A stretch of 64,000 nucleotides of DNA from Escherichia coli (lineage in GTDB: Bacteria; Pseudomonadota; Gammaproteobacteria; Enterobacterales; Enterobacteriaceae), in assembly GCF_003018235.1 (NCBI RefSeq), contig NZ_CP027437.1; one strand, written 5' to 3'. The translations under genes were made by a program, and so were the position numbers. Below the pieces are notes generated by a model. It was not told the DNA's origin. It searched no databases and saw only the letters and a list, made by a program, of their open reading frames with translations. Shown piece by piece: positions 307 to 55,817 of this stretch. The number at the start of each line of letters is the position of its first letter. The stretch's first letter is position 1.

Positions 307-413
307 GGGGGATCTTAAGCAATCAGAAGCCAATGACTACGCATTTTTATAAGCCGGATCATGAAGTTAGACGGCAATTAAGTAACACTAACGTTTAAGG
401 TGAAAAGTGAAAT

Positions 414-1610: not shown

Positions 1611-1636
1611 AAGCGCGGCTGGATAACGCCGAACCG

Positions 1637-2065
1637 ATGCCGGATTACCTGAAGCATCATATTGTCTATTACGCTGGCTCGGCGAAAACACCGGAGAACA
1701 TGGCCTGCGGTTCACTGGGTCCAACCACGGGCGGTCGAATGGACGGTTATGTCGATACCTTCCAGGCGGCTGGCGGCAGTCTGGTGATGTTATCGAAAGG
1801 TAACCGCAGCCAGCAGGTCACCGATGCCTGTCACAAACATGGTGGCTTCAATCTGGGTAGTATTGGCGGTGCAGCTGCGTTACTGGCGCAAGAATATGTC
1901 AAAAGTCTGCGTTGCCTGGAATACCCGGAGCTGGGTATGGAAGCGGTGTGGATGATGGAAGTGGAAAATCTGCCCGCATTCATCCTGGTAGATGATAAAG
2001 GCAATAATTTCTTTAGTCAGTTTGAGCAGCAACACCGCTGCGCCAGTTGCCCTGCGGGACATTAA
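1637..2065 (+). CDS. Class I fumarate hydratase family, C-terminal (beta-type) domain fragment; probable continuation of the 414-1610 ORF after a frameshift
   Basis: 142-aa ORF ([12 protein letters not shown]…[12 protein letters not shown]…[12 protein letters not shown]) matching my recollection of the FumA C-terminal domain. The same frame read upstream (…[21 protein letters not shown]) matches the FumA linker. Confidence 0.7.
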
Positions 2066-2074
2066 GGAAAATGA

Positions 2075-2677: not shown

Positions 2678-2680
2678 TAA

Positions 2681-2713
2681 CTGCGCCTGGCATCCCGCCA
2701 GGCGCAGGTTTTA
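2681..2713. terminator. Probable bidirectional intrinsic terminator between the convergent CobA-like and LysR genes
   Basis: Perfect 11-bp inverted repeat ctgcgcctggc / gccaggcgcag with a 5-nt loop (2681-2707), followed by gtttta. Confidence 0.5.
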
Positions 2714-3616: not shown

Positions 3617-4180
3617 AATGCCGTCCCTTAAAAATAGTTTAAACCATCAAAAATACATTACTTATTACGAAGTAATGGTAACCAAAGCAGCAATAAATAA
3701 TTTATAAGAATCATGATTGACATTTATAACCCAGTAAGCCTGGCGTGACAAATATCTTAATCAGATAATAATAATCCGAAAAGCACAGCGCCTTTCGAAT
3801 TATCCGGAATCACATTAAGTGAAAATTATTAAATTGATATCATTTATCATATCTGTGGATATTATGATAAACAATCAACAAAGATTTTATTTTTGATTTA
3901 TAGCATATCCCTCTAAGAATTTTTGCGATGCTGCAATATCCGGGGTAAAGACCCGATCCTGGCTGACAAATGGCACGACTTGACGATAAGCGGTGAACAT
4001 CGCTTTTGTTGATTTACTTAACGCTACGGTCAAACGCTGGGAAGCCAGTGCATCAGGTAACGATTCGAAATTCGCCGTCGTTCTTATTCGTGGCTTGCGG
4101 TCGGTTGCGGCAATCCACAGTGGCTGTGGTCATGCAGTCAAGCCAGCGGTCAGATTTCGACCGTGGTTAACATTTAAGGC

Positions 4181-4205
4181 ATAAAAAAGGCCATCATACG
4201 ATGGC
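4181..4205 (-). terminator. Rho-independent terminator of the suc operon (and 3' end of sdhX)
   Basis: On the minus strand: hairpin GGCCATCGTATGATGGCC followed by TTTTTT. Confidence 0.7.
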
Positions 4206-4281
4206 CAACCATGTCGAAACCGACAGCCCTTCGCCATTCCTGTAGAGGGAAGCGGCGAGGGCTATTTCTTATTACAGATAT
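4182..4281 (-). ncRNA. sdhX: SdhX (RybD) sRNA derived from the sucD 3' UTR
   Basis: A ~100-nt segment between the sucD stop and the intrinsic terminator, at the position where sdhX is described in E. coli K-12. Assigned by position and terminator only; I cannot verify the seed sequence from memory. Confidence 0.5.
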
Positions 4282-5151
4282 TTATTTCAGAACAGTTTTC
4301 AGTGCTTCACCGATATCCGCCAGGCTGCGAACGGTTTTCACGCCTGCGGCTTCCAGAGCAGCGAATTTCTCATCCGCAGTCCCTTTACCACCGGCAATGA
4401 TGGCACCCGCGTGGCCCATACGTTTGCCTTTCGGCGCAGTCACACCAGCGATGTAACCCACAACAGGCTTGGTAACGTGCTCTTTGATGTACGCAGCCGC
4501 TTCTTCTTCAGCGCTACCGCCGATCTCACCGATCATCACGATCGCTTCGGTCTGCGGATCTTTTTCGAACATTTCGAGGATGTCGATAAAGTTAGAGCCA
4601 GGGATCGGGTCGCCGCCGATACCGACACAGGTCGACTGACCGAAACCGTAATCCGTGGTCTGTTTAACCGCTTCATAGGTCAGTGTACCGGAACGGGAAA
4701 CGATACCCACTTTACCCGGTTTGTGAATGTGACCAGGCTGGATACCGATTTTGCATTCACCCGGAGTGATAACGCCTGGGCAGTTCGGGCCGATCATACG
4801 AACGCCAGCTTCGTCCAGTTTCACTTTCACAGTCAGCATATCCAGCGTCGGGATGCCTTCAGTGATGGTGATAATCAGTTTGATGCCTGCATCAATAGCT
4901 TCCAGAATGGAGTCTTTGCAGAACGGTGCTGGTACGTAGATAACAGAAGCGGTAGCGCCAGTAGCAGCAACAGCTTCACGCACGGTGTTGAACACCGGCA
5001 GGCCGAGGTGGGTGGTGCCGCCTTTACCTGGGGTTACGCCGCCAACCATTTTAGTGCCGTATGCAATGGCCTGTTCTGAGTGGAAAGTCCCCTGGCTACC
5101 GGTAAAGCCCTGGCAGATAACCTTGGTGTTTTTATCAATTAAAATGGACAT
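4282..5151 (-). CDS. sucD: Succinyl-CoA synthetase alpha subunit
   Basis: 289-aa ORF, recognised from memory as SucD ([24 protein letters not shown]…). Confidence 0.97.
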
Positions 5152-6317
5152 TATTTCCCCTCCACTGCGGCAACAACCTGCTGAGCTGCATCCGTCAGAC
5201 CTTTTGCTGCAATAATATTCAGGCCGCTGTCAGCCAGTTTCTTCGCGCCGAGTTCGGCGTTGTTACCTTCCAGACGTACCACGACCGGTACGTTAACACC
5301 CACTTCCGCTACCGCGCCGATGATACCGTCAGCGATCAGGTCGCAACGAACGATACCGCCGAAGATGTTAACCAGAACGGCTTTCACTTTGTCGTCAGAG
5401 AGGATGATTTTGAACGCTTCGGTTACACGTTCTTTGGTTGCGCCGCCGCCAACGTCAAGGAAGTTAGCTGGTTCGCCGCCGTGCAGTTTAACGATGTCCA
5501 TCGTACCCATCGCCAGACCTGCGCCGTTAACCATACAACCGATGTTACCGTCCAGCGCAACGTAGTTCAGTTCCCACTGTGCAGCCTGTGCTTCACGTGG
5601 ATCTTCCTGCGACTGGTCACGCATTTCGCGCAGATCAGGCTGGCGGAACAGTGCGTTGCCATCAGCGCCCAGTTTGCCGTCGAGGCAAATCAGATCGCCC
5701 TGTTTGGTGATGACCAGCGGGTTGATTTCGATCAGCGCCAGGTCGCGCTCCAGGAAAATGGTCGCCAGGCCCATGAAGATTTTGGTGAACTGCTGAACCA
5801 GTTTACCTTCCAGACCCAGTTTGAACGCCAGCTCGCGTCCCTGATACGGCATCGGGCCAGTCAGCGGATCAAGCGCAACTTTGTGGATCAGGTGCGGAGT
5901 TTCTTCCGCCACTTTTTCGATTTCCACGCCGCCTTCGGTGGAGGCCATAAAGACCACACGACGGGAACTACGGTCAACAACGGCACCGAGATACAGCTCT
6001 TTAGCGATATCGGTCGCTGCTTCAACCAGAATCTGGTTAACCGGTTGGCCATTGGCATCTGTTTGATACGTTACCAGACGCTTGCCCAGCCAGTTTTCTG
6101 CAAAAGCACGGATGTCTTCTTTGCTGTTTACAACTTTCACACCGCCCGCTTTACCGCGGCCACCAGCGTGAACCTGACATTTCACTACCCACGGACCGGC
6201 ACCGATTTTTGAAGCGGCTTCTTCTGCTTCGCGCGGAGTAGTACAGGCATAACCCACCGGTGCTGGTAAGCCATAGCGGGCAAAAAGTTGTTTTGCCTGA
6301 TATTCATGTAAGTTCAT
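5151..6317 (-). CDS. sucC: Succinyl-CoA synthetase beta subunit
   Basis: 388-aa ORF ([18 protein letters not shown]…); ATGA overlap with sucD. Confidence 0.97.
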
Positions 6318-6410
6318 GTGTTCTGTCCATCCTTCAGTAATCGTTATCTTTTAAACCGTAGACCGACACCCTATCCACGTCGGTCTACAGTGCAGGTGAA
6401 GCTTAAACTA

Positions 6411-30856: not shown

Positions 30857-31020
30857 TTTGTGCTCCTTAATTATGTAAGGAGTATTTGATCATGTATAAG
30901 CAATAAAAAACAGCTTCAGGTAATGAGGAATATCTCAATTTTTAAACATAAAATGCGAATTATTTAGCACAAAAAAGCAGCGTTACGTGATCTTTCCCTG
31001 GTGATAAACGAGAAATAAAT

Positions 31021-31053
31021 AAAAGGGGCGAGGCTGATTTCGCCCCCTTTTAT
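31021..31053. terminator. Probable intrinsic terminator downstream of the orphan immunity gene
   Basis: Hairpin aggggcga…tcgcccc flanked by A/T runs on both strands. Confidence 0.5.
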
Positions 31054-31056
31054 TAT

Positions 31057-31422
31057 TTAACAATATTTAACTTCATATTTCCCTATAATATCGAACACAT
31101 GGTCATAAGTACTGATAATTATGTGCTGAACTCCATCTCTTTGGATATCCTCTACTAAATCGAAACTTGATTTAGTATATTGTTCAAAAGGATAATCATC
31201 AACTTTGTATATAGATAACTTTTCAATTTTGCTAATAAAAAACTCGAGACTAATATCATAAGCATCTTTAATAGCAGGTTTGCAGGCAGACAACGATAAG
31301 GAAGCTTTGATGGTAAAGTTAAATGGATACAGATTTAACTCTGTCCCAGTTAAAATCAACGCATCTCGACCATATATTTGACCATATTTTGTTTCTAGTG
31401 CTTTTACAATCATATTAGCCAC
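31057..31422 (-). CDS. Putative immunity protein paired with the orphan Rhs C-terminal toxin
   Basis: 121-aa AT-rich ORF whose start (GTG 31422 or ATG 31413) abuts or overlaps the stop of the upstream orphan toxin frame, the usual toxin/immunity arrangement. No recognisable family. Confidence 0.55.
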   Translation of the reverse strand: MANMIVKALETKYGQIYGRDALILTGTELNLYPFNFTIKASLSLSACKPAIKDAYDISLEFFISKIEKLSIYKVDDYPFEQYTKSSFDLVEDIQRDGVQHIIISTYDHVFDIIGKYEVKYC

Positions 31423-31882
31423 AACCTCTTGTCCTCACTGTTCTGCCGCCATTTTGAGTTGAAAATCTTCGATCTAAATTAATTTTTGACAATTCCTCTG
31501 GAGTAGCCCATCTCGAAGGAATCTTCGATACACCGGCTGCTTTGGCAGCATAAAGTCGTCTGTTATCTAAAGTAAAGACTGAATCTTTATGAGCACCTTG
31601 TGATAACAATCTCTCTTGAACATTTACAGGTAAATCCCGCATTCTAACTTTTCTAATAGGTTCAACGTGATTTATATATGACGGGTCATTTATAAGTCTG
31701 TGAATAAGTCCATTAACATTTCTTCCGTCTTCAAAAACACCATTCATACTATCTTGTGAGAATAGAATTGTTTTAGGACTTACTGGTGATAATCCAAGAG
31801 GATCTATCCATGATAACGGGTTTGGAACATAACTATAGAGGTTTAATCCCCCCTCCAGCCCTATCGGGTCAGGATGCGCAAT
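31415..31882 (-). pseudogene. Orphan Rhs C-terminal toxin module (start-less fragment retaining only the DPxGL end of the Rhs core)
   Basis: Minus-strand frame reads …DPIGLEGGLNLYSYVPNPLSWIDPLGL followed by a ~125-aa unique domain (…MNGVFEDGRNVNGLIHRLIND…TLDNRRLYAAKAAGVSKIP…). The frame opens after a stop at 31883-31885 with no in-frame start until M at 31747. Confidence 0.7.
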
Positions 31883-32006
31883 CTACCTATCTGAACGATC
31901 GTACCATCAACTTCGTATATAAATTATCAAGACTGTAACGTCATAGCGCCATGACTTACTGTTATGATTTCATAAACAGGGAAGATATAATTCCTTACCC
32001 GATATA

Positions 32007-32435
32007 TTATTGGTGCTTCGATTTAAAAAACTCCCAATACTTTGGAGTATATCCTTTAAATGCTCTATGTTTCCCTTTTTCATAAGCTTTCAGGAAACAT
32101 TCGTAAGCCTCATCGTTTTCACCTAATTCTAGACAAACACCCCCTAAGTTAATCAGTTCAGATGTGGAATATAGTGGAATTTCACACTTAAAAATTTCAA
32201 CTGCCCAGTATTTTGCCTCATTATATTTTTTAAGGTCAAAATACACACCATAAATGCAACGAATCAACCATGCAGAAACTCCATCACCAAAAGAATATTT
32301 CGGCTCAGGTAAACTATCCCACAAAGAAAGATAAAGTTTTAAAGCACCATAGGCATCTCCTTGATCTTCAAGAACGTTACCATCTTCGATTTGCTTTACT
32401 ATGCTTTCTTCAAGCACTGGTCTGGTACTACTCAT
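32007..32435 (-). CDS. Putative cognate immunity protein for the main Rhs C-terminal toxin
   Basis: 142-aa AT-rich ORF 73 nt downstream of the Rhs stop on the same strand. No recognisable family. Confidence 0.55.
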   Translation of the reverse strand: MSSTRPVLEESIVKQIEDGNVLEDQGDAYGALKLYLSLWDSLPEPKYSFGDGVSAWLIRCIYGVYFDLKKYNEAKYWAVEIFKCEIPLYSTSELINLGGVCLELGENDEAYECFLKAYEKGKHRAFKGYTPKYWEFFKSKHQ

Positions 32436-32508
32436 TGCAAGCTACTCCATATGTATAAAATGAAAATTCACATAGTTCTAACTAGCTAATATATAACAAC
32501 CGATTTCT

Positions 32509-35500
32509 CTATTTTATGATTGGCGGTACAATTGGAGGTGTCACTGGTGGTAAGTATACTTGACCAAGTTTAGCCCCAGCAGAACGGTTAAGAGAATAAT
32601 GATCCAAATAATAATTTTTTGAATCCAGCATCCAATCCCTGACAGGTTTAGACTTCGGCCCCAAAAATCTACCAGTATTATTCCACCATGTAACGGCATC
32701 TGTCTTATGAGACATATCTGCTTCACTTAATGGATGCCAGACACCTTCAGAATCTTTAAACTCCATCCGGGAACCTGTCCCTCTAATTTTTCCATCATTT
32801 CTCATCCGAGCAATAACCTCACGGCCTGTTCGGCTATTCTTCCCTGGGGTTCTTCCTAAGAAATCACAACGTTTTGACAGCCCTAATGGGTCAATCCACC
32901 CCAGCGGATTAGGCGCATAAGCATACAGGTTCAGCCCGCCCGCCAGCCCTATCGGGTCCGTTACCATGAACCGCCCGACATCCGGATCATAGTACCTGTG
33001 CAGATTGTAATGCAGCCCCGTTTCCCTGTCGAGGTACTGTCCCTGGTAGCGCAGGTTCTGCTCCACCCCGCCGTGGTCCTTCTCCTGTATCGTGTTACCC
33101 CAGACCTGATACCCCGTCTCCCACACGATTTTCCCGTCGCTGTCCGTCATCTCTTCCGGCGCGCCGTTCACATCCGTGTGAAAATACAGTATCCGGTTCG
33201 GGCCCTCTTTACCCACCTTATCCACCCGCGCCAGCGGTTCATAACTCCCCGGGTCGCTGTAGATATACAGGCTGCTTATTCCCTCCGGCCTGCTCTCCTG
33301 CGCCAGCCGCATTCCGTCCCATAAAAATGTCGTCCGGTTGTACGGTTTACCGTCAGGGCTGATGTGCTGTTTTTCCGTCCGCCTCCCCAGCGCATCGTAC
33401 ACATACCGGTACGTTCCCCGCGCTGTCGTCACTTCCACCATCCGGTGTTCCGCATCATAACGGTAACTCTGCGTGCCGCTCCGGCCCTCCTTTTCCACCG
33501 CACGGCCAAATTCGTCGTAACGGTAGTGCACACCACGGTAAGACATCAGCCGGTTGAACGGCACCACGCTGTTTTCTGCCGTGGCCCTTTCCCCCGCGCG
33601 CCGCGCCAGCAGGTTTCCCGCCGCGTCGTACTCCCAGCTCGCCAGATACCCCTCATCCTCCGAGCGGCACGCCGTGATGCGCCCCGTGGGGTCGTAGAAG
33701 TAATCCGTTTCCCCCCGCCGGCTGTGCCGCGTCTTCAGCAGTTCATCCTCGCCGCTGTAGCTGTACTGCCGGTCCGTGAACGTCTCCGGTACCACCCCGC
33801 GCATCCCGCTGTATGTCTCCCTGCGCTTCAGCCGCCCGGCGGGGTCATAAAGCTGCCGCGTGCTCAGTCGCCCCTGACTTCTGAGCACTTCCCGGTGCAG
33901 GGCGTCACGTGTGAACTCGCTGATGACCTCCCGGTCCAGATTTATCTGCTGGAGATGGCCGCTGCCGTAGTACAGATGACGCTGCGTTCTGCCGTCCGGA
34001 AAGGAGGTGGCTGTCCGGTTGCTGAGTTCATCGTACTGATGGGTCAGGACGCCCTGCGCCGTCTCCTCAGTCAGCATCCGCCCCAGTCTGTCGTAACTGA
34101 AGCGGATAATCTCCGGTGCGTCCATTTCCCCGGCATCCGACCGTCGGCGGCGGATTTCCAGTAGCTGGTCTGCCGCATCATGGACGTATTCCGTACGGCT
34201 ATCGGCTGTCTCCTTTGCCGTGAGCCGGCCCGCCGCATCACGTGCCAGCCGGTGGCGGATTTCACCGCCCCGGTCCCCTGTGAACACCACTTCCGTGACC
34301 GCGTTCAGCACGTTGTAACGGTACGTCTGGCGGCAGCCGTCCGGATTTATCTGCTCCGCCAGACGGTCCAGCACATCATGGCGGAACCGGTAGTTTTCTC
34401 CGTTCTCGTTCGTGAGCGTGACCAGACGCCCGTAAGCATCGTACCCGAACGCCGTCCTGCGCCCCGTCGCGTCTGTCCGGCTGCGCACCCGGCCCTGCCC
34501 GTCCCGCTGCCAGCGCGTTATCCTCCCCATCGGGCTGGTGTACTTCACGAGCCTGCCCGCCGCGTCCGACTGGTAATTCACCGTGCGGCCGTCCGCCAGT
34601 ATCACCTCCGTCAGGTGGCCGCTGTCGTCATACCCGTAGCGCGTGCTGTGGCTCTGCGCGTCTGTCATCCGTATCAGCCGCGTGCGTTCGTCGTAGAACC
34701 AGGCCGTCTGCGAGCCGGAACAGTCCGTGTGCCGCATGAGCTGTCCGTCTTCGTTCCACTGAAGGTATTTATTCCCCCCGCGCGCATCCGTTATCTGCAC
34801 CACCTGACCGTGGCGGTCATACTGATACCGGGTGTTCTGCTGCAGCGGGTCGGTCACCGCAAGAAGATTGCCGCGTTCATCGTACTCACAGCACCAGCTG
34901 TTCCCCGCCGCGTCCACCTCCGTTTCCGGCTGGTGCCACACCGGGTGCCACTGTGTCTGTGCCACCCGCCCCAGCGGGTCGTGCGTCTCCGTGATATGCC
35001 CCTGCCGGTCATACACATAGCGCCATTTGCCGCCCTGCGCATCGGTCATTCCCAGTAACAGCCGTTCTTCGTCGCTCCAGCGGAACGTCGTCACCTGCCC
35101 GGCTTCGTCCTGGTACGCCGTCACCTGGTTCTGCGCGTCCCACTGATGATAACGCGTGCGCCCCAGCCCGTCCGTCACGCACAGCCTGCGTGCCGCGAGG
35201 CTCCACGCCAGCCGGTACTGTTCACCGCTGTCCGTGTGGTGCCCCGTCACCCGCCACGCTGCGTCATCCGGGCCTTCATACCAGCCCCACTGGTAATAAT
35301 ACCCTTCGCCGCCCGGCTGGCGGTGCAGGGTCATGCAGTGGTTTTCGTCGTAAGCAAACTCGCGCAGCAGGTGCCCCGTGCTGTCGTACACGCCGTTCAG
35401 GTCGCCGGCCTCGTCATAGCGGTAACGACGCAGCAGTAAAGGAGCCGTCTCAGGGAAATGCTGATAAATCTGTGTCACCCGCCGGGGATGCGCCGCCAGT

Positions 35501-37188
35501 TCATAATGCAGACGGATGCACGGACGCTGCTGTTCACCGCTGATTTGCGTGATGCGCCCCAGCTCGTCGTAGTACAGATTCAGACAGTTGCTGTTGCGGT
35601 CGCCCAGCATTTTCAGCCGCTGGTGCTGCGGGTGATGCGGGTCGGCTTCAAACAGAAAAAACTGCCCGTCATCGCTGCTGATAAGCCAGTGCCCCTGCTC
35701 ACCCCGCCGTACTGCCAGTCCTTCGCCGGGGCTGTAAAACCCGCTCCCCGGCAGCACAGCCTCCATATCCAGGCGTCGTCCCATGCCCGACACAAAGGTC
35801 ATACAGTTTTCGTCAGCAGTACCCGGCGTGCGCACGAGGCTGACTTCATACATCACGCTCCAGCCCTGCCCGAACATCCCTTCCGTGCGGTCGTCACGAC
35901 TGCTGTACACGCGCTGCCAGTCCAGCGGAAAGTGGCCCGGCAGACTGAAGTCAAAATCATCGTCATCGGCCAGATATTTGGCTCCGGTGGCGGCATTGAC
36001 CGGATGCGGAAGGGCACTGATGGCCTTCTGCGTCATCACCCCCATCCCGACACTGGCAGCAAAACAGGCGATTTTAGAAAGCATTTTGCCCGGGCGAAGA
36101 AACATCAGCGCCACGGTTGCCACCAGGGTTATCTGCGACCTGCCGCTTCTGATATCCCTGACCACCAGTAACGGACCGCCAATGCGGACATCCGGTGACA
36201 CAAACGCCCCGTTCCCCGGCTCATTCACCACCCTGGCCTCGCAGGTGCAGCGTGCCCCGCTGCGTGCCGCCGGCTGGCTGTTGATACGCACATCCCGCGC
36301 GCCTTCCGCGATATATTCCGCTGCGGGCGGTTCATCATCGCCTTTGAACAGATTACTGATGCTGCCAATAACCGCATTCACTCCCTGAAAGGCGGTTTCC
36401 AGCATACCGCCCGGACTCAGCAGGTTAAGGGCCGTTCCCAGGGGGTCATCCAGAAAGGCGGCTTTTTTTTGTGCGAGAAACTGCGTCAGTGAGGAGGGAT
36501 GTTTATGGCAGTCGATTTTATCGTCAGGGGTCGGGGTGGAGCCCGGGGCCGCACTGGCCACGGTGGGCTGCCATAGTTCCGACACAAAATGTGTCACGCC
36601 ATCCACCATTTCAGAACGCCCTTCTTCCGTACTGAGCTGGTCATGCAGCGCCCGGGACATCAGCACAGGCCCTGTCACCGGGTTAACCGCCAGGGCTATG
36701 GCCCCCGCCATTTCCAGATATTCCCCGGCCACATCCAGGAACGTTCTGGCGTCCTCCTGACGCTGCGCTTCTTCCTGTTCCGCCTTCGCCTGCGCCTCCT
36801 GCGCCTCAATGTCCTGCCGCGATGCCGCAGTCGCCGCGGCCCGCGCGGCAGGTTTGCTGTTGATCCATGTGTCGCCAGAGCCGGTGAGGATGTAACCTTC
36901 AATCTGAGGCGGGAAAAGCATATTTGCGAGGTCTGAACAGACTTCGCTGACCTTTTCTGTCACGCCGGTGTACACCATCGCCACACCCGCCACAAAACCG
37001 GTCAGCACGACGGCCGTGCACCCCATAGTGATCCCCGCTGACGTCGCCAGTAACGAGGTTGTGCCGACAATGAGGGCATCAATAACGACATTTGCGGCCA
37101 CCTCCAGCACCGCCCCCAGCACATCTGCCATAAACGACGTATGCAGCAGGGCATCACCCTGCCTTGCCGCCCAGAATGCCTCTTCCAT
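32509..37188 (-). CDS. Rhs-family polymorphic toxin with N-terminal prePAAR motif, transmembrane segments, PAAR-like motifs, YD-repeat core and variable C-terminal toxin domain (putative T6SS-delivered effector)
   Basis: 1559-aa ORF. N-terminus [16 protein letters not shown] matches AARxxDxxxH; hydrophobic stretches follow; PAAR-like motifs (…WINSKPAAR…, …[11 protein letters not shown]…); many YD repeats; core ends [27 protein letters not shown], then a ~120-aa tip. Core is very GC-rich, tip AT-rich. Confidence 0.85.
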   Translation of the reverse strand: [1559 protein letters not shown]

Positions 37189-37206
37189 GTCCCGTTCCCT
37201 GTGTGA

Positions 37207-37436
37207 TTAATTCGTCCCGGCTTCCTGCCGCATCCTGAAGCGCAGATTCTTTTTAATTTCAGCCCAGCGCGTCATATCTGCCGGGGTCAGCGGTGTGGTT
37301 CTGGCGTAGGTGAAGGCCATCATGACCCGCTCACCCGGCAATACAAATGCCACCTGACACTGGTACACCTGCTCGTTACCCCGGAGAAACTGGCTCTGTA
37401 TTTGCAAACCGCCTCATTGAGATAATATTCCGTCAT
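37207..37436 (-). pseudogene. Possible remnant of an Eag/DUF1795-like chaperone gene immediately upstream of rhs
   Basis: ATG at 37436 with an AGGA RBS gives MTEYYLNEAV… then terminates; the +1 frame continues as …QIQSQFLRGNEQVYQCQVAFVLPGERVMMAFTYARTTPLTPADMTRWAEIKKNLRFRMRQ, ending 19 nt before the rhs start. Family assignment is from memory and weak. Confidence 0.35.
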
Positions 37437-38190
37437 AATAGAAGTCGTCCTTTTTAATAAATGAATTATTTATTGACAGGTTCTGTTTTTTAATCATGAA
37501 TGTAATGTCTATCACCGCTTTACAGCACTCTTTATCTTTCAAGCGGTAATCACTAATAACATTAAGCAATTACCCATATTTACAATGACCGGAACTGATA
37601 TGCCGTTATGTATTTAACAATCCCAACATATTCACCATACCAATAAAATCACGAGTAACAAACACGCTACCGCCTCCATATAAAAAATGGACAGCTTATA
37701 AAATTGCATCTTGCATAGAAAGGGCTGAGATATCGAGTGTATTTTAATTATCAACTATAAATCTTGAATATTTTCATTAACAGAAACACATCTTATCCCA
37801 TTAGATATGTTAACAATCAATTATTCTTAACATATCACTAAAGTATATATTACTCTCTTTACTATCTGTTTTTATTGCGGTAGCGATATTAATAGCAAAA
37901 TTCGGAATTTATTTAGATGCTGGAATAAGAAAAAATGATGACGGCTTTCTTACCTTACCCTGAAGTTTCAGGAAAGTGTGTAAGGAAGGATGCAACCTAA
38001 CTGGAGATTTCTGAGGATCTAGTTGCTTAGAGCGACAATGAAGGTGAACGCATCCAGAGTAGTCCTATGAAAGGATACTATTGAAAATTGATGCTAAAAC
38101 AGTGATTAAATGAACAACACCATGGAACCCGTTGATTCAAAACGCCTAAACCAGCCCCCTGATACGAGGCTGGCTTAAACGCGCAGGCAA

Positions 38191-45801: not shown

Positions 45802-46475
45802 CAAACGTTCTGATTGTTGAAGATGAACAGGCTATTCGTCGCTTTCTGCGCACGGCGCTGGAGGGCGATAGGATGCGCGTCTTTGAGGCCGAAACGCTGC
45901 AACGCGGCTTGCTGGAAGCGGCTACCCGTAAGCCAGATTTGATTATTCTCGATCTCGGCCTGCCCGATGGTGATGGGATTGAGTTTATCCGCGACCTGCG
46001 CCAGTGGAGCGCAGTGCCGGTGATTGTGCTTTCCGCACGTAGCGAAGAGAGCGACAAAATCGCCGCGCTGGATGCCGGAGCGGATGATTATCTGAGTAAG
46101 CCGTTTGGCATTGGCGAATTGCAGGCCCGTCTGCGCGTCGCATTACGCCGCCACTCTGCCACCACCACGCCCGATCCGCTGGTGAAATTTTCCAATGTTA
46201 CCGTCGATTTAGCGGCTCGAGTGATCCATCGCGGTGAGGAAGAGGTGCATCTCACCCCGATTGAGTTCCGCCTGCTGGCGGTGTTGCTTAATAATGCGGG
46301 AAAAGTGCTCACCCAGCGCCAGCTCCTTAACCAGGTGTGGGGGCCAAACGCGGTCGAACACAGTCATTATTTGCGTATTTATATGGGGCATCTGCGACAA
46401 AAACTGGAACAGGATCCCGCCCGCCCACGCCATTTCATTACTGAAACCGGTATTGGGTATCGGTTTATGCTTTGA
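45798..46475 (+). CDS. kdpE: Response regulator KdpE (OmpR family)
   Basis: 225-aa ORF ([37 protein letters not shown]…). Confidence 0.95.
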   Translation: MTNVLIVEDEQAIRRFLRTALEGDRMRVFEAETLQRGLLEAATRKPDLIILDLGLPDGDGIEFIRDLRQWSAVPVIVLSARSEESDKIAALDAGADDYLSKPFGIGELQARLRVALRRHSATTTPDPLVKFSNVTVDLAARVIHRGEEEVHLTPIEFRLLAVLLNNAGKVLTQRQLLNQVWGPNAVEHSHYLRIYMGHLRQKLEQDPARPRHFITETGIGYRFML

Positions 46476-46749
46476 ATTGTTATTCAATAAATTCGCTTTA
46501 ATAGTGATTAATTTATTATTAAACCTGCTCCAAATATTATTATTTGGCAGGTTTAATTTCTTAACGCAAATATAAAACACGAAATTACAACATTTAAGTA
46601 ACAAAACAGCATCTAATATAGCAATATTCATAATTAATGATTTATTATCTGGGGTATGATCGTTTTTTTTTGATCTTCTTCACAGATTATAGCCATTTCA
46701 TGGATAGAATAACTCTACCTTCAACTGACACAGCAAGAGGTAAAGGTAA

Positions 46750-46854
46750 ATGGAAAATAATAACCGCTTAATGCCTCATATAAGGCGGACAACCCATATC
46801 ATGAAGTTTGCCCATCGTAATAGTTTTGACTTTCATTTCTTTAATGCCCGCTAG
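46750..46854 (+). CDS. speFL: speF leader / ornithine-sensing ribosome-arrest peptide
   Basis: 34-codon ORF MENNNRLMPHIRRTTHIMKFAHRNSFDFHFFNAR, ~310 nt upstream of speF. Not in the ORF track (below its length cutoff). The HIRRTTHIMKFAHRNSFDFHFFNAR portion matches SpeFL as I recall it. Confidence 0.75.
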   Translation: MENNNRLMPHIRRTTHIMKFAHRNSFDFHFFNAR

Positions 46855-47164
46855 TCTTCTGACTAAAGGGCACCCCAACGTACAGGTCTCCCTGACTTTA
46901 AGCATTACAGGTTAATACCTGTATCCTTCGGTGCTCATATACTGCTAACCCTTTTAAACTCTAAATAATTCGAGTCGCAGCACTTGCAACTTGAGGTATG
47001 ACGAGTATAGCCAGTTACCGGGCTGGTCTGGGTTATTGCATCTACAAAAAGCAAACTACTGATTTATTTATCAGCGGTGGGGTTTTGCTTTTTTTCCGGC
47101 GTGATCGATTTCTCCTTTGAGAAATTGAGGACCTGCTATTACCTGAAATAAAGAGATGAACAAA

Positions 47165-49363
47165 ATGTCAGAATTAAAAATTGCCGTTAGTCGTTCTTGC
47201 CCGGATTGTTTTTCAACTCATCGCACATGCGTGAATATTGACGAAAGTAATTATATTGACGTTGCCGCCATTATTTTATCGGTCAATGATGTGGAACGTG
47301 GAAAACTCGATGAAATAGACGCTACTGGCTATGGCATTCCTGTTTTTATTGCAACGGAAAATGAAGAACGTGTACCCGCAGAATATCTGCCACGTATTTC
47401 TGGTGTCTTCGAACATTGCGAATCACGTAAAGAGTTTTATGGACGTCAGTTAGAAACCGCTGCAAGCCATTATGAAACGCAACTGCGCCCGCCCTTCTTC
47501 CGCGCACTGGTCGATTATGTTAATCAGGGCAATAGTGCTTTTGACTGCCCTGGTCATCAGGGGGGTGAGTTTTTCCGTCGCCATCCGGCAGGCAATCAGT
47601 TCGTGGAATACTTTGGTGAGGCGCTGTTCCGTGCTGACTTGTGCAACGCCGACGTAGCGATGGGCGATCTGCTGATTCACGAAGGCGCGCCATGCATTGC
47701 ACAGCAACATGCGGCTAAAGTCTTTAATGCCGATAAAACCTATTTCGTTTTAAACGGTACTTCATCTTCTAATAAAGTGGTCTTAAACGCATTGCTGACG
47801 CCGGGCGATCTGGTGTTGTTTGACCGCAATAACCATAAATCTAACCACCACGGTGCGTTGCTACAGGCTGGCGCGACACCGGTTTATCTGGAAACCGCAC
47901 GTAACCCGTATGGTTTTATCGGTGGTATTGACGCTCACTGTTTTGAAGAAAGTTACCTGCGTGAGCTGATTATAGAAGTTGCACCGCAGCGGGCAAAAGA
48001 GGCTCGTCCTTTCCGCCTCGCCGTTATTCAGCTAGGCACTTACGACGGTACGATTTATAACGCCCGTCAGGTGGTGGATAAAATTGGTCATCTGTGTGAC
48101 TACATCCTCTTTGACTCCGCATGGGTCGGCTATGAGCAGTTTATCCCGATGATGGCGGACTGTTCACCACTGTTGCTGGATCTTAATGAGAACGATCCGG
48201 GTATTCTGGTTACGCAATCCGTACATAAACAGCAGGCTGGTTTTTCTCAAACTTCACAAATCCATAAAAAAGACAGCCACATCAAAGGGCAACAGCGTTA
48301 TGTACCGCACAAACGCATGAACAACGCCTTTATGATGCACGCCTCCACCAGCCCGTTCTATCCGCTGTTTGCCGCACTGGATATCAACGCCAAAATGCAT
48401 GAAGGTGTCAGCGGTCGTAATATGTGGATGGATTGTGTGGTAAATGGCATTAATGCCCGCAAACTGATCCTCGATAACTGTCAGCATATTCGTCCGTTCG
48501 TACCTGAACTGGTGGATGGTAAACCCTGGCAGTCGTATGAAACAGCGCAAATTGCGGTTGATCTGCGCTTCTTCCAGTTTGTACCAGGGGAACACTGGCA
48601 TTCTTTTGAAGGCTATGCAGAGAATCAATACTTTGTTGATCCGTGCAAACTGTTGCTGACAACCCCAGGTATTGATGCACGTAACGGCGAATATGAAGCG
48701 TTCGGTGTACCCGCGACGATTCTTGCTAATTTCCTGCGCGAAAATGGCGTAGTGCCGGAAAAATGCGATCTTAACTCCATCCTCTTCCTGCTGACTCCAG
48801 CAGAAGATATGGCCAAACTTCAGCAACTTGTTGCCCTGCTGGTACGCTTCGAAAAACTGCTGGAATCTGATGCGCCGCTGGCGGAAGTGCTACCTTCCAT
48901 CTACAAACAGCATGAAGAGCGCTACGCCGGTTATACGCTTCGTCAGTTGTGCCAGGAAATGCATGATTTGTATGCCCGCCACAACGTGAAACAACTGCAA
49001 AAAGAGATGTTCCGTAAGGAACACTTCCCACGCGTCAGCATGAATCCGCAAGAAGCTAACTACGCCTATTTACGCGGTGAAGTGGAGCTGGTTCGTCTGC
49101 CGGATGCAGAAGGCCGTATCGCTGCCGAAGGTGCGCTTCCTTATCCTCCGGGTGTGCTGTGTGTTGTTCCGGGTGAAATCTGGGGTGGTGCTGTTTTGCG
49201 TTACTTCAGCGCTCTGGAAGAAGGGATCAACCTGCTGCCAGGTTTTGCACCGGAGCTGCAGGGTGTCTATATCGAAGAACATGATGGTCGTAAGCAAGTT
49301 TGGTGCTATGTCATCAAGCCTCGTGATGCGCAAAGCACCCTGTTGAAAGGGGAAAAATTATGA
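47165..49363 (+). CDS. speF: Inducible ornithine decarboxylase
   Basis: Start at the ATG giving MSELKIAVS… (732 aa). Confidence 0.95.
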   Translation: MSELKIAVSRSCPDCFSTHRTCVNIDESNYIDVAAIILSVNDVERGKLDEIDATGYGIPVFIATENEERVPAEYLPRISGVFEHCESRKEFYGRQLETAASHYETQLRPPFFRALVDYVNQGNSAFDCPGHQGGEFFRRHPAGNQFVEYFGEALFRADLCNADVAMGDLLIHEGAPCIAQQHAAKVFNADKTYFVLNGTSSSNKVVLNALLTPGDLVLFDRNNHKSNHHGALLQAGATPVYLETARNPYGFIGGIDAHCFEESYLRELIIEVAPQRAKEARPFRLAVIQLGTYDGTIYNARQVVDKIGHLCDYILFDSAWVGYEQFIPMMADCSPLLLDLNENDPGILVTQSVHKQQAGFSQTSQIHKKDSHIKGQQRYVPHKRMNNAFMMHASTSPFYPLFAALDINAKMHEGVSGRNMWMDCVVNGINARKLILDNCQHIRPFVPELVDGKPWQSYETAQIAVDLRFFQFVPGEHWHSFEGYAENQYFVDPCKLLLTTPGIDARNGEYEAFGVPATILANFLRENGVVPEKCDLNSILFLLTPAEDMAKLQQLVALLVRFEKLLESDAPLAEVLPSIYKQHEERYAGYTLRQLCQEMHDLYARHNVKQLQKEMFRKEHFPRVSMNPQEANYAYLRGEVELVRLPDAEGRIAAEGALPYPPGVLCVVPGEIWGGAVLRYFSALEEGINLLPGFAPELQGVYIEEHDGRKQVWCYVIKPRDAQSTLLKGEKL

Positions 49364-50679
49364 GTCAGGCTAAATCGAACAAAATGGGCGTCGTTCAGTT
49401 AACCATACTGACGATGGTCAACATGATGGGCTCCGGTATCATCATGCTGCCGACAAAGCTTGCCGAAGTTGGGACAATTTCAATTATCTCCTGGCTGGTG
49501 ACAGCCGTAGGCTCAATGGCACTGGCATGGGCATTCGCAAAATGCGGTATGTTCAGCCGTAAATCAGGCGGTATGGGCGGTTATGCGGAGTATGCTTTCG
49601 GTAAATCCGGGAACTTTATGGCGAACTATACCTACGGCGTCTCACTGCTAATTGCTAACGTCGCGATTGCTATTTCGGCGGTTGGTTACGGCACCGAACT
49701 GCTCGGCGCGAGTTTGTCGCCAGTGCAGATTGGTCTTGCGACCATCGGGGTGCTGTGGATTTGTACCGTGGCTAACTTTGGTGGTGCGCGCATTACCGGG
49801 CAAATCAGTAGCATTACCGTGTGGGGGGTCATTATTCCGGTGGTAGGCCTGTGCGTTATCGGCTGGTTCTGGTTTAGCCCGACGCTTTACGTTGATTCCT
49901 GGAATCCGCATCATGCACCGTTCTTCAGTGCGGTAGGTTCTTCCATCGCTATGACGCTGTGGGCTTTTCTTGGTCTGGAGTCTGCGTGTGCGAATACTGA
50001 TGTAGTGGAAAACCCGGAACGTAATGTGCCAATCGCGGTACTCGGCGGTACGTTAGGTGCGGCGGTGATTTATATCGTCTCCACCAACGTGATTGCAGGG
50101 ATTGTGCCTAATATGGAGCTGGCAAATTCAACGGCACCATTTGGCCTGGCCTTCGCACAGATGTTCACGCCAGAAGTGGGTAAAGTCATTATGGCGCTGA
50201 TGGTGATGTCCTGCTGCGGTTCGCTGCTTGGCTGGCAGTTCACCATTGCCCAGGTGTTTAAATCTTCATCTGATGAAGGCTACTTCCCTAAAATTTTCTC
50301 CCGTGTAACCAAAGTGGATGCACCGGTGCAGGGAATGTTGACCATTGTGATTATCCAGAGCGGGTTGGCGCTGATGACGATTAGCCCGTCGCTAAACAGT
50401 CAGTTCAACGTGCTGGTTAACCTAGCCGTGGTGACCAATATCATTCCGTATATTCTGTCAATGGCGGCATTAGTCATTATTCAGAAGGTCGCTAATGTGC
50501 CCCCCTCAAAAGCGAAAGTTGCAAACTTTGTTGCTTTTGTTGGCGCGATGTACAGCTTTTATGCGCTGTACTCATCCGGGGAAGAAGCCATGCTATACGG
50601 TTCCATCGTGACCTTCCTCGGTTGGACACTGTATGGTCTGGTCTCACCACGCTTTGAACTGAAAAATAAACACGGTTAA
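49360..50679 (+). CDS. potE: Putrescine/ornithine antiporter
   Basis: 439-aa ORF; 4-nt overlap with the speF stop. Confidence 0.95.
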   Translation: MSQAKSNKMGVVQLTILTMVNMMGSGIIMLPTKLAEVGTISIISWLVTAVGSMALAWAFAKCGMFSRKSGGMGGYAEYAFGKSGNFMANYTYGVSLLIANVAIAISAVGYGTELLGASLSPVQIGLATIGVLWICTVANFGGARITGQISSITVWGVIIPVVGLCVIGWFWFSPTLYVDSWNPHHAPFFSAVGSSIAMTLWAFLGLESACANTDVVENPERNVPIAVLGGTLGAAVIYIVSTNVIAGIVPNMELANSTAPFGLAFAQMFTPEVGKVIMALMVMSCCGSLLGWQFTIAQVFKSSSDEGYFPKIFSRVTKVDAPVQGMLTIVIIQSGLALMTISPSLNSQFNVLVNLAVVTNIIPYILSMAALVIIQKVANVPPSKAKVANFVAFVGAMYSFYALYSSGEEAMLYGSIVTFLGWTLYGLVSPRFELKNKHG

Positions 50680-50689
50680 TTAAGCAAAG

Positions 50690-54468: not shown

Positions 54469-54999
54469 ATGGCTATCACTGGCATCTTTTTCGGCAGCGA
54501 CACCGGTAATACCGAAAATATCGCAAAAATGATTCAAAAACAGCTTGGTAAAGACGTTGCCGATGTCCATGACATTGCAAAAAGCAGCAAAGAAGATCTG
54601 GAAGCATATGACATTCTGCTGCTGGGCATCCCAACCTGGTATTACGGCGAAGCGCAGTGTGACTGGGATGACTTCTTCCCGACTCTCGAAGAGATTGATT
54701 TCAATGGCAAACTGGTTGCGCTGTTTGGCTGTGGTGACCAGGAAGATTACGCTGAATACTTCTGTGACGCATTGGGCACCATCCGCGACATCATTGAACC
54801 GCGCGGTGCAACCATTGTTGGTCACTGGCCAACTGCGGGCTACCATTTCGAAGCGTCAAAAGGTCTGGCAGATGACGACCACTTTGTCGGTCTGGCTATC
54901 GACGAAGACCGTCAGCCGGAACTGACCGCTGAACGTGTAGAAAAATGGGTTAAACAGATTTCTGAAGAGTTGCATCTCGACGAAATTCTCAATGCCTGA
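54469..54999 (+). CDS. fldA: Flavodoxin 1
   Basis: Start at the ATG giving [27 protein letters not shown] (176 aa). Confidence 0.95.
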
Positions 55000-55208
55000 T
55001 GTGATGCGGCGTAGACTCATGTCTACGCCGTATTAATAGATAATGCCAATCAAAATAATTGCTACAAATTTGTAACTTTTGCTGTTGTACCTGTACAATG
55101 TCCCGGTGTTCAAGTGGCCTTGCCGTTGTAAATGTAAGCTGTGCCACGTTTTTATTAACAATATTTGCCAGGGACTTGTGGTTTTCATTTAGGCGTGGCA
55201 ACTCTATA

Positions 55209-55295
55209 ATGATACGCATTATCTCAAGAGCAAATTCTGTCACTTCTCCTAATGAAGTGAACCGCTTAGTAACAGGACAGATTCCGCATGACTGA
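55209..55295 (+). CDS. uof: Upstream ORF of fur (leader peptide coupled to fur translation)
   Basis: 28-codon ORF MIRIISRANSVTSPNEVNRLVTGQIPHD whose stop overlaps the fur start by 8 nt. Confidence 0.7.
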   Translation: MIRIISRANSVTSPNEVNRLVTGQIPHD

Positions 55296-55734
55296 TAACA
55301 ATACCGCCCTAAAGAAAGCTGGCCTGAAAGTAACGCTTCCTCGTTTAAAAATCCTGGAAGTTCTTCAGGAGCCGGACAACCATCACGTCAGTGCGGAAGA
55401 TTTATACAAACGTCTGATCGATATGGGTGAAGAAATTGGTCTGGCTACGGTATATCGCGTACTGAACCAGTTTGACGATGCTGGTATCGTCACCCGCCAC
55501 AATTTTGAAGGCGGTAAATCCGTATTTGAACTGACACAGCAACATCACCACGATCACCTGATCTGCCTCGACTGCGGCAAGGTTATCGAATTTAGTGATG
55601 ATTCCATCGAAGCGCGTCAGCGTGAAATTGCCGCAAAACATGGCATTCGCCTGACTAACCACAGTCTCTATCTTTACGGTCACTGTGCCGAAGGCGATTG
55701 CCGCGAAGATGAGCACGCGCACGAAGGCAAATAA
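55288..55734 (+). CDS. fur: Ferric uptake regulator
   Basis: 148-aa ORF (MTDNNTALKKAGLKVTLPRLKILEVLQEPDNHHVSAEDLYKRL…). Confidence 0.97.
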   Translation: MTDNNTALKKAGLKVTLPRLKILEVLQEPDNHHVSAEDLYKRLIDMGEEIGLATVYRVLNQFDDAGIVTRHNFEGGKSVFELTQQHHHDHLICLDCGKVIEFSDDSIEARQREIAAKHGIRLTNHSLYLYGHCAEGDCREDEHAHEGK

Positions 55735-55817
55735 GCCAGCCGGAACGAGAAAAGCCAACCTGCGGGTTGGCTTTTTTATACACGGGAAATAAGAAAAGCG
55801 AGAGTTACAGCTCTCAC

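What the first reader, a model, noticed from the sequence alone, without database searches (positions are those of the whole stretch)
55209..55295. uof leader ORF translationally coupled to fur
A 28-codon ORF ends 8 nt inside fur, and its start sits within the fur promoter region, where a Fur box is expected. This matches the known uof-fur coupling. It is too short for the ORF track, so it is easily missed.
Basis: partly seen in the sequence, partly recalled or inferred. Interest (0 to 1): 0.2.

Follow-up and report, generated by a model that had tools for sequence, protein, structure and literature searches.

The report
Known uof leader ORF of fur
This is the already described and routinely annotated 28-codon "uof" leader reading frame that overlaps the start of the E. 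coli iron regulator gene fur, so the finding is correct but ordinary.

Summary
ATG 55209 to TGA 55295 is a 28-codon ORF (MIRIISRANSVTSPNEVNRLVTGQIPHD) ending 8 nt inside fur (ATG 55288). Its ATG lies inside a Fur box (55205-55223) and overlaps the TATAAT -10 hexamer (55205-55210).

It is the known uof. RefSeq annotates exactly these bases as "uof: fur leader peptide". The peptide passes NCBIfam NF011344 (81.3 bits, cut-off 71). The leader differs from K-12 at two bases, one giving S14P.

Mechanism, from the literature on K-12: uof translation is coupled to fur translation, RyhB blocks uof initiation, and Ser6 UCA links decoding to MiaB. The geometry, the UCA codon and a hexamer complementary to RyhB nt 42-47 (which holds G44/C45) are all present.

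Comparison added three qualifications.
- The ORF alone is not significant: 12% of shuffled spacers give an equivalent one.
- Among 54 Enterobacteriaceae leaders the frame is labile. It is frameshifted in Salmonella and the Klebsiella oxytoca group, and shows no codon-position signature.
- A hairpin inside uof (55240-55260) is conserved with compensatory changes.

The Fur-regulated promoter should start transcription inside uof. Only transcripts from the upstream promoter (TTGTAA-18-TACAAT, 55070-55099) or from fldA read-through can carry the uof AUG.

Verdict: supported, already known, low interest.

The parts
55209..55295 (+). uof coding sequence: 28 codons plus TGA, carrying the S14P allele relative to K-12
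   Evidence: sequence and translation. (RefSeq annotation at the same bases). (NF011344, 81.3 bits against a cut-off of 71).
55288..55734 (+). fur coding sequence (148 aa). Its ATG lies 5 nt upstream of the uof stop codon.
   Evidence: (NF006999, 309 bits against a cut-off of 146)..
55205..55223 (+). Fur box TATAATGATACGCATTATC (16 of 19 consensus positions), covering the uof ATG and codons 2-5
   Evidence: the only match in 64 kb, with 0 expected. PMC7867234 states that the Fur box overlaps the -10 motif of Pfur-a.
55182..55210 (+). Pfur, the Fur-repressed promoter: -35 TTTTCA, 17-nt spacer, -10 TATAAT. The inferred start of transcription is about 55216-55218, inside uof.
   Evidence: 10 of 12 matches. 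PMC6191717 and PMC7867234 place Pfur and its start sites within the uof ORF. The exact start site here is inferred.
55070..55099 (+). Puof, the upstream promoter TTGTAA-18-TACAAT that can give uof-fur mRNA containing the uof AUG
   Evidence: The same hexamers are listed for 'uof-fur' in PMC3946193.
55224..55226 (+). Ser6 UCA codon, the MiaB (ms2i6A37)-sensitive codon described in the literature
   Evidence: codon list. PMC7466049.
55228..55233 (+). GAGCAA, complementary to RyhB nt 42-47 (UUGCUC), which include G44/C45. Mutation of G44/C45 abolishes repression of uof-fur.
   Evidence: pairing. (RyhB sequence). PMC6191717. The bases from 55203 to 55247 are identical to K-12. Assigning this hexamer as the partner of G44/C45 is my inference.
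55240..55260 (+). Conserved RNA hairpin inside uof codons 11-18: UCACUUC, 7-nt loop, GAAGUGA. The S14P SNP (55248) lies in its loop.
   Evidence: -8.5 kcal/mol, z -4.35. (equivalent hairpins in other genera). (90.4% of cells paired, 6 of 6 pairs with changes on both sides, 0 of 500 shuffles as high).
55274..55277 (+). fur Shine-Dalgarno-like AGGA, 10 nt before the fur ATG. It lies inside uof codons 22-23 and is predicted to pair weakly with UCC at 55283-55285.
   Evidence: The block ACAGGAC...CCGCATGAC is almost invariant in 44 leaders.
54469..54999 (+). fldA, the upstream gene. fldA read-through transcripts also carry uof-fur.
   Evidence: annotation mapped to the window. PMC4161252.
55748..55777 (.). 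fur terminator hairpin: 13-bp stem with an A-run on one side and a U-run on the other, so probably bidirectional with chiQ
   Evidence: -23.4 kcal/mol, z -6.3. The simple scan missed it.

Best explanation
The feature is uof, the known leader ORF of fur in Escherichia coli.

On mRNAs that start upstream (from Puof at 55070-55099, or from fldA/ybfE read-through), ribosomes initiate at AUG 55209 and translate 28 codons. They pass through the hairpin at 55240-55260 and across the fur Shine-Dalgarno region. They terminate at UGA 55293-55295, 5 nt past the fur AUG. Termination next to the AUG and unfolding of the fur initiation region allow fur to be translated, so Fur synthesis follows uof translation.

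When iron is scarce, Fur no longer represses ryhB. RyhB then pairs around the uof initiation region and blocks uof initiation, and so indirectly blocks fur. Decoding of Ser6 UCA depends on the Fe-S enzyme MiaB, which gives a second iron-dependent brake. The Fur box over the uof ATG and the -10 hexamer gives transcriptional autoregulation of the internal promoter Pfur.

Shown here: the anatomy, the identity to annotated uof, and the presence of every sequence element. Taken from the literature on K-12: the coupling, the RyhB control and the MiaB effect. Inferred: the start sites in this strain, and that the two SNPs are neutral.
For: - Exact coordinates and the 8-nt overlap.
- The same bases are annotated as uof in RefSeq, and in all 40 rows taken at even steps through the ranking of 5424 E. 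coli genomes.
- NCBIfam NF011344 'fur leader peptide' scores 81.3 bits against a cut-off of 71. The exact peptide is named 'fur leader peptide' on at least 1000 contigs.
- Only two SNPs relative to K-12 in 321 nt.
- Fur box 16 of 19, unique in the window. Both promoters are found, and Puof matches PMC3946193.
- Ser6 UCA is present (PMC7466049).
- A complement to RyhB nt 42-47, which include G44/C45, is present (PMC6191717).
- Literature statements of coupling and RyhB control: PMC7534054, PMC12683245, PMC4161252.
Against: - No translation data can be examined here.
- uof has no clear Shine-Dalgarno sequence, and its AUG sits in the stem of a predicted hairpin formed by the Fur-box palindrome.
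- Pfur should start transcription inside uof (PMC6191717; PMC7867234), so those transcripts cannot use the coupling.
- The RyhB-uof duplex is no better than 44% of random windows, and PMC3018821 also found the published pairing not predictable.
- The ORF frame is not conserved across Enterobacteriaceae and shows no codon-position signature.
Confidence: 0.93

Rival explanations
1. The ORF is an evolutionary by-product. On this reading its ends are fixed by DNA and RNA signals: the ATG by the Fur box and -10 hexamer (TATAATGA), and the C-terminal codons by the fur Shine-Dalgarno region and start. The middle is constrained by an RNA hairpin. Translation of the frame would then add little to fur control.
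For: - 12% of shuffled spacers give an equivalent ORF.
- Of 54 Enterobacteriaceae-type leaders with the same TATAATG, 14 have a premature stop 18-48 nt before fur, including Salmonella at -27 and the Klebsiella oxytoca group at -36.
- A control frame without any start requirement is open up to fur in 25 of 54 leaders, against 40 of 54 for the ATG frame.
- Entropy by codon position is 0.39, 0.33 and 0.45, so there is no third-position excess.
- 1-nt indels are as common as 3-nt indels.
- The hairpin shows compensatory changes.
Against: - Published reporter and mutational work in K-12 shows that fur translation depends on uof translation (cited in PMC7534054, PMC12683245 and PMC6191717).
- The ORF is intact in all E. 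coli rows sampled.
- It stays in frame across a 3-nt indel (distances -79 and -82) in about 15 genera.
- A leader ORF that acts only by being translated is not expected to show constraint on its peptide.
Confidence: 0.06
2. For most fur mRNA, meaning the transcripts from the Fur/OxyR-controlled Pfur, the uof region acts as an untranslated 5' leader. It would hold the hairpin and the RyhB site but no uof AUG. Coupling would then apply only to the minority of transcripts from Puof, fldA or ybfE. This is a limit on the scope of the main explanation rather than an alternative identity.
For: - The -10 TATAAT at 55205-55210 places the start site about 7 nt downstream, inside uof.
- PMC6191717 reports that the Pfur transcript, which starts within the uof ORF, is the one reduced by RyhB. 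The Puof uof-fur transcript is not destabilised.
- PMC7867234 places both fur start sites inside uof.
- The hairpin is conserved even where the ORF is broken.
Against: - The relative abundance of the transcripts is not known here.
- The original coupling experiments showed a strong effect on Fur synthesis.
Confidence: 0.35
3. uof is a transcription-attenuation leader peptide of the trpL or hisL type. In that case ribosome position on the leader would choose between a terminator and an antiterminator ahead of fur.
For: It is a short leader ORF that contains a hairpin. It is listed with the attenuation leaders in EcoCyc's 'leader peptide' class (PMC7815308).
Against: - No terminator-like site lies between uof and fur, because the two ORFs overlap.
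- The hairpin at 55240-55260 is followed by AACCGCUUAG, not by a U-run.
- There is no run of regulatory codons.
Confidence: 0.01

Closest known systems
uof (b4637, UniProt LPFUR_ECOLI, NCBIfam NF011344), the RyhB-regulated fur leader peptide of E. coli K-12
   Same: Same locus (fldA-uof-fur-chiQ), same length, same 8-nt overlap, same Fur box, same Ser6 UCA and same RyhB-complementary hexamer. 27 of 28 residues are identical.
   Different: S14P (55248, T in K-12 and C here), which lies in the hairpin loop. One further SNP at 55202, in the Pfur spacer 7 nt before the ATG. Both occur in other natural strains: strain 118UI is 100% identical over 181 nt, and 393 records are at least 99% identical.
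uORFs from the same Fur-box ATG in other Enterobacteriaceae
   Same: The same TATAATG start embedded in the Fur box and -10 hexamer, the same hairpin position and the same fur initiation region.
   Different: - Cedecea, Mangrovibacter and others: the uORF ends in an ATGA overlap (+4).
- Salmonella: 16 codons, stopping at -27.
- Klebsiella oxytoca group: 14 codons, stopping at -36.
- Yersinia, Serratia and Pantoea: 4-codon mini-ORFs (MRRN/MRRK).
- PMC7867234 states that Y. enterocolitica lacks uof.
Leader ORFs targeted by sRNAs, such as thrL and ivbL with GcvB (PMC7534054)
   Same: An sRNA blocks initiation of a leader ORF and thereby lowers expression of the downstream gene.
   Different: Those leaders act through transcription attenuation. 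uof acts through overlapping-ORF translational coupling, with no terminator.
speFL, the leader peptide of speF (also in this window, 46750-46854 +)
   Same: A short annotated leader ORF that controls the gene downstream.
   Different: From my own knowledge, speFL senses ornithine by nascent-peptide stalling and Rho-dependent termination. Its peptide sequence matters, whereas the uof peptide shows no constraint.

Membership tests
uof / fur leader peptide (NCBIfam NF011344, EcoCyc b4637) | Short ORF (28 codons) immediately upstream of fur whose stop codon overlaps the fur start region by 8 nt | tested here: met
   55209-55295 against the fur ATG at 55288.
uof / fur leader peptide (NCBIfam NF011344, EcoCyc b4637) | Peptide passes the curated equivalog model | tested here: met
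   81.3 bits, cut-off 71, profile positions 1-28 of 28.
uof / fur leader peptide (NCBIfam NF011344, EcoCyc b4637) | Same genomic position as annotated uof (between fldA and fur) | tested here: met
   Annotated in all 40 sampled rows of 5424 genomes.
uof / fur leader peptide (NCBIfam NF011344, EcoCyc b4637) | Ser-UCA at codon 6 (MiaB-dependent decoding) | tested here: met
   (TCA at 55224-55226). PMC7466049.
uof / fur leader peptide (NCBIfam NF011344, EcoCyc b4637) | RyhB pairs with the uof initiation region | tested here: inconclusive
   The sequence is identical to K-12 from 55203 to 55247, and GAGCAA is complementary to RyhB 42-47. The best duplex, -14.9 kcal/mol, is matched by 44% of random windows. 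PMC3018821 reports the same difficulty.
uof / fur leader peptide (NCBIfam NF011344, EcoCyc b4637) | uof is translated and fur translation depends on it | not testable with these tools
   Known only from K-12 experiments (Vecerek et al. 2007, cited in PMC7534054 and PMC12683245). The original paper is not held.
Fur-repressed promoter (Fur box) | 19-bp site close to GATAATGATAATCATTATC that overlaps core promoter elements | tested here: met
   (16 of 19, unique in the window, 0 in shuffles). (overlaps the -10 hexamer).
Transcription-attenuation leader peptides (trpL type) | Intrinsic terminator between the leader ORF and the structural gene, with an alternative antiterminator | tested here: not met
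   the ORFs overlap, no terminator-like site lies between them, and no U-run follows the hairpin.

The most novel reading that the evidence does not exclude
Across Enterobacterales, the conserved functional units of the fur leader may be the Fur-box-embedded AUG and an RNA hairpin about 28-38 nt upstream of the fur AUG. The overlap of the uORF with fur would then be evolutionarily labile: +8, +4, a premature stop, or a 4-codon mini-ORF, depending on leader length modulo 3. On this reading uof-fur coupling is a lineage-restricted elaboration found in Escherichia, Citrobacter, Enterobacter and relatives. The hairpin would have its own, still unassigned role, for example stabilising or regulating Pfur transcripts that lack the uof AUG.
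Probability: 0.35. Interest if true: 0.3.

Novelty: already known. Interest (0 to 1): 0.1.

Why it matters
As an annotation it matters little. uof has been in EcoCyc, UniProt and RefSeq since the 2007 description, and NCBI's pipeline calls it automatically.

It is a good positive control for the scan. A reader without tools correctly recognised a 28-codon regulatory ORF, its overlap with fur and the Fur box.

The comparative results add some value. They show that conservation of the ORF is a weak test for this kind of leader. They also show that the model taken from K-12 (uof-fur coupling, Ser6 UCA) should not be transferred automatically to Salmonella or Klebsiella, where the frame is broken. 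Finally, they point to a conserved hairpin in the fur leader whose function could be tested.

Tried and rejected
- The original paper (Vecerek et al. 2007) could not be read by DOI or by a guessed PMC id. Its content is cited only through later papers.
- No supplementary start-site tables are held for PMC4161252, so the start sites are inferred from promoter hexamers plus statements in PMC6191717, PMC7867234 and PMC3946193.
- Unconstrained RNAduplex of full-length RyhB against 230-330 nt gave meaningless duplexes with very long loops. The restricted run gave a plausible three-block pairing that is no better than background. I therefore do not claim sequence evidence for RyhB targeting.
- RNAalifold on the MAFFT alignment A2 did not recover the hairpin, because hairpins of different loop length were put out of register. 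A covariance-model alignment was used instead, and that alignment leans towards the modelled structure.
- Rfam gave nothing at gathering threshold in the whole window. Around fur it gave only sub-threshold hits, most of them at the fur terminator. No tRNA genes were found.
- Folding of the fur initiation region gave only a weak structure, with the Shine-Dalgarno GGA paired to UCC (z -1.8 at best). Its bases are almost invariant in 44 leaders, so covariation can say little about it.
- The attenuation-type leader peptide model was rejected on anatomy.
- Longer in-frame starts (TTG 55059, ATG 55098, TTG 55176) were considered. ATG 55098 lies inside the Puof -10 hexamer, and TTG 55176 has AGGGA only 2 nt upstream. 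Neither is annotated anywhere, so both were rejected.

Full report
**1. The observation**

Reading the window and translating it confirms the finding base for base.
- ATG is at 55209-55211, followed by 28 sense codons encoding MIRIISRANSVTSPNEVNRLVTGQIPHD, with TGA at 55293-55295.
- fur starts at ATG 55288 and runs to 55734 (148 aa). Its product scores 309 bits against the NCBIfam Fur equivalog NF006999.
- The two frames share 8 nt (CATGACTGA).

The consensus GATAATGATAATCATTATC has exactly one match with at most 3 mismatches in the 64 kb window. This is TATAATGATACGCATTATC at 55205-55223, and no match occurred in 100 shuffles. The site contains the uof ATG. It also contains a perfect TATAAT hexamer (55205-55210), which forms a promoter-like site with TTTTCA at 55182 and a 17-nt spacer.

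Two qualifications apply.
- The ORF alone is not statistically remarkable. 12% of dinucleotide-preserving shuffles of the fldA-fur spacer give an ATG ORF of at least 28 codons that ends over the fur start.
- The frame is open back to 55059, so a mechanical ORF list shows a 78-aa TTG-start ORF that contains uof.

**2. Identity**

The 811 nt around the site match 5424 of 5426 complete E. coli genomes at 95% identity or better. The features under the match are fldA, 'uof: fur leader peptide' and fur.
- In strains ETEC1738 and 118UI the annotated uof maps exactly onto 55209-55295.
- In K-12 MG1655 the gene is b4637, 'RyhB-regulated fur leader peptide', 87 nt.
- All 40 rows taken at even steps down the ranking of 5424 genomes carry the uof annotation.
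- The peptide passes the curated NCBIfam equivalog NF011344 'fur leader peptide' (81.3 bits, cut-off 71).
- The exact sequence is on record under that name on at least 1000 contigs.

Over 321 nt the window differs from K-12 at two bases. One is 55202 (C here, T in K-12), which lies in the Pfur spacer 7 nt before the ATG. The other is 55248 (C here, T in K-12), which changes Ser14 to Pro. Both occur in natural strains: 118UI is 100% identical over 181 nt. The neighbourhood is the standard kdpDE ... pgm-seqA / ybfF-ybfE-fldA-uof-fur / chiQ-chiP-glnS.

**3. Mechanism**

What is known comes from K-12 experiments, which I could read only through later papers because the original is not held.
- fur translation is coupled to uof translation, and RyhB blocks uof initiation and so lowers Fur synthesis (PMC7534054; PMC12683245).
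- Inverting RyhB G44/C45 abolishes the repression (PMC6191717).
- Ser6 UCA is read preferentially by MiaB-methylthiolated tRNA-Ser, which links decoding to iron (PMC7466049).

Every sequence element needed for this is present in the window.
- The 8-nt overlap.
- A weak fur Shine-Dalgarno sequence, AGGA at 55274-55277, 10 nt from the AUG and inside uof.
- Ser6 TCA at 55224-55226.
- GAGCAA at 55228-55233, complementary to RyhB nt 42-47. The RyhB sequence was taken from the K-12 record.

The best restricted duplex has three blocks:

| RyhB nt | Window bases |
|---|---|
| 60-65 | 55210-55215 |
| 42-47 | 55228-55233 |
| 38-41 | 55238-55241 |

Its energy of -14.9 kcal/mol is matched by 44% of random windows. 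PMC3018821 likewise found the published model not predictable. The RyhB step therefore rests on experiment, not on sequence.

uof has no clear Shine-Dalgarno sequence. Its AUG lies in the stem of a predicted hairpin formed by the Fur-box palindrome.

**4. Promoters: a limit on the scope of coupling**

The -10 hexamer overlaps the uof ATG, so transcription from this Fur-controlled promoter should begin at about 55216-55218, inside uof. The literature agrees. PMC6191717 calls Pfur 'located within the uof ORF', and PMC7867234 places both fur start sites inside uof.

Only transcripts that start upstream can carry the uof AUG. The scan finds TTGTAA-18-TACAAT at 55070-55099. PMC3946193 lists this same hexamer pair as the constitutive 'uof-fur' promoter. 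PMC4161252 adds read-through from fldA and ybfE. PMC6191717 reports that RyhB lowers the Pfur transcript but not the Puof transcript. How much Fur is made through coupling therefore depends on the mix of transcripts, which I cannot measure.

**5.

A degenerate pattern on the fur N-terminus brought in 120 Enterobacterales loci. TATAATG, the -10 hexamer and Fur box with its embedded ATG, was found within 130 nt upstream of fur in about 70 of them.

Outcomes for the 54 Enterobacteriaceae-type leaders (45 unique), reading from that ATG:

| Outcome of the uORF | Leaders | Examples |
|---|---|---|
| Ends +8, as in E. coli | 31 | Escherichia, many Citrobacter, Enterobacter, Leclercia, Kosakonia, Phytobacter, Pseudescherichia, Pluralibacter gergoviae, Kluyvera, Superficieibacter, Siccibacter, Intestinirhabdus |
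| Stop lost, 49 codons | 1 | Enterobacter asburiae |
| Ends +4 (ATGA overlap) | 6 | Cedecea, Mangrovibacter and others |
| Fused in frame to fur | 1 | Enterobacter sp. R1 |
| Stops 18-48 nt before fur | 14 | Salmonella diarizonae and arizonae (16 codons, caused by a 1-nt shorter hairpin loop), Klebsiella oxytoca group (14 codons), Citrobacter amalonaticus |

One further leader (L096, Leclercia NCTC13032) also stops early, but it carries several extra single bases that may be assembly errors.

Yersinia, Serratia and Pantoea have only 4-codon mini-ORFs, in line with PMC7867234, which states that uof is absent from Y. enterocolitica.

A control frame with no start requirement reaches fur in 25 of 54 leaders, against 40 of 54 for the ATG frame. 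In 18 unique 28-codon ORFs the entropy by codon position is 0.39, 0.33 and 0.45, so there is no coding signature. Ser6 UCA is replaced by CCA in Enterobacter, Leclercia, Kosakonia and Phytobacter. The N-terminal codons are the Fur box, and the C-terminal codons are the fur initiation region.

Conservation across genera therefore gives only weak support for selection on the frame. This does not contradict a leader that works simply by being translated. It does mean that the K-12 model should not be assumed for Salmonella or Klebsiella.

**6. A conserved hairpin inside uof**

UCACUUC-loop-GAAGUGA at 55240-55260 folds at -8.5 kcal/mol with z = -4.35. Hairpins with a different stem sequence occupy the same position in other lineages.
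- In Enterobacteriaceae the 3' end of the hairpin lies 28-30 nt before the fur AUG. Examples are ACUUCC/GGAAGU, CGCUCA/UGAGCG in Cedecea, and GCCC/GGGC in Mangrovibacter.
- In Yersinia, Pectobacterium and Dickeya the stem is AGGCU/AGCCU. In Serratia it is AGGCG/CGCCU or AGGCA/UGCCU. In these groups the 3' end lies 34-38 nt before the AUG.

On a covariance-model alignment of 92 leaders, 90.4% of cells form standard pairs and all 6 pairs show changes on both sides. There are 21 compensatory cells against 4.3 +/- 1.7 in shuffles (0 of 500 as high), and slid controls give 8 or fewer.

Three caveats apply. The alignment is fitted to the modelled structure. About a third of the rows are gapped at these columns. 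RNAalifold on a plain MAFFT alignment failed to recover the hairpin.

The element is not in Rfam. The S14P SNP falls in its loop. The Salmonella frameshift is a change in the length of the same loop. The function of the hairpin is unknown to me.

**7. Verdict**

The feature is already known and automatically annotated, and interest is low. The most novel reading that the evidence leaves open is this: the hairpin and the Fur-box AUG are the conserved units, and the uof-fur overlap is a lineage-restricted elaboration.

Noticed in passing
window 55240-55260 (+); equivalent positions in L004-L123: An RNA hairpin inside uof codons 11-18 is kept across Enterobacterales with different stem sequences. 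On the covariance-model alignment all 6 pairs show changes on both sides, and 0 of 500 shuffles score as high. It is not in Rfam and its function is unknown.
   Followed up: yes
window 55182-55223 (+): The Pfur -10 TATAAT overlaps the uof ATG, so transcripts from this Fur-controlled promoter should start inside uof and lack its start codon. The literature (PMC6191717, PMC7867234) agrees. How this fits with the coupling model is not resolved here.
   Followed up: partly
window 55202 and 55248: Two SNPs relative to K-12 MG1655. 55202 (C for T) lies in the Pfur spacer 7 nt before the uof ATG. 55248 (C for T) gives S14P and lies in the hairpin loop. Both are found in other natural strains, for example 118UI.
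   Followed up: yes
L070, L079 (Salmonella enterica subsp. diarizonae and arizonae); L073, L109, L123 (Klebsiella oxytoca group); L082, L085 (Citrobacter): The same Fur-box ATG is present, but 1-nt indels shift the frame. The uORF is only 14-16 codons and stops 27-36 nt before the fur ATG, so there is no overlap with fur.
   Followed up: yes
L028 (Enterobacter asburiae), L033 (Enterobacter sp. R1), L009/L042/L093/L038/L091/L108: In E. asburiae, fur codon 2 is ACA, which removes the uof stop and gives a 49-codon ORF running 71 nt into fur. In Enterobacter sp. R1, the leader ATG is in frame with fur with no stop, so a 22-residue N-terminal extension is possible. Six other leaders end with an ATGA overlap (+4) instead of +8.
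   Followed up: partly
window 55002-55035 (+): A very stable 15-bp hairpin lies 3 nt after the fldA stop (-25.4 kcal/mol, z -7.9) with no U-run after it. It could be a partial terminator or an mRNA-stabilising element, which would fit fldA read-through into uof-fur.
   Followed up: partly
window 55748-55777: The fur terminator has a 13-bp stem flanked by an A-run and a U-run, so it is probably bidirectional with the convergent chiQ. The simple terminator scan missed it. The only Rfam hits there are sub-threshold.
   Followed up: partly
window 46750-46854 (+): A second annotated leader peptide lies in the window: speFL (34 aa, MENNNRLMPHIRRTTHIMKFAHRNSFDFHFFNAR), upstream of speF-potE. Most of the kdpE-speF spacer around it (46478-47022) does not align to K-12 by megablast, and speF-potE is only about 94.7% identical to K-12.
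   Followed up: partly
window 31009-38186, 46474-50686 and 1-6366: Strain-variable content. About 7 kb between ybfA and ybgA, the rhsC position in K-12, matches neither K-12 nor strain 118UI. speF-potE is present here but absent from 118UI. ybfP-ybfG of K-12 are absent here. The first 6.4 kb match the 118UI region annotated sucC, sucD, a LysR-type regulator, cobO and class I fumarate hydratase.
   Followed up: no
window 55059-55295 (+): The uof frame is open for 78 codons, with in-frame TTG 55059, ATG 55098 and TTG 55176. ORF finders therefore report a longer ORF with the wrong start instead of uof. ATG 55098 lies inside the Puof -10 hexamer.
   Followed up: partly
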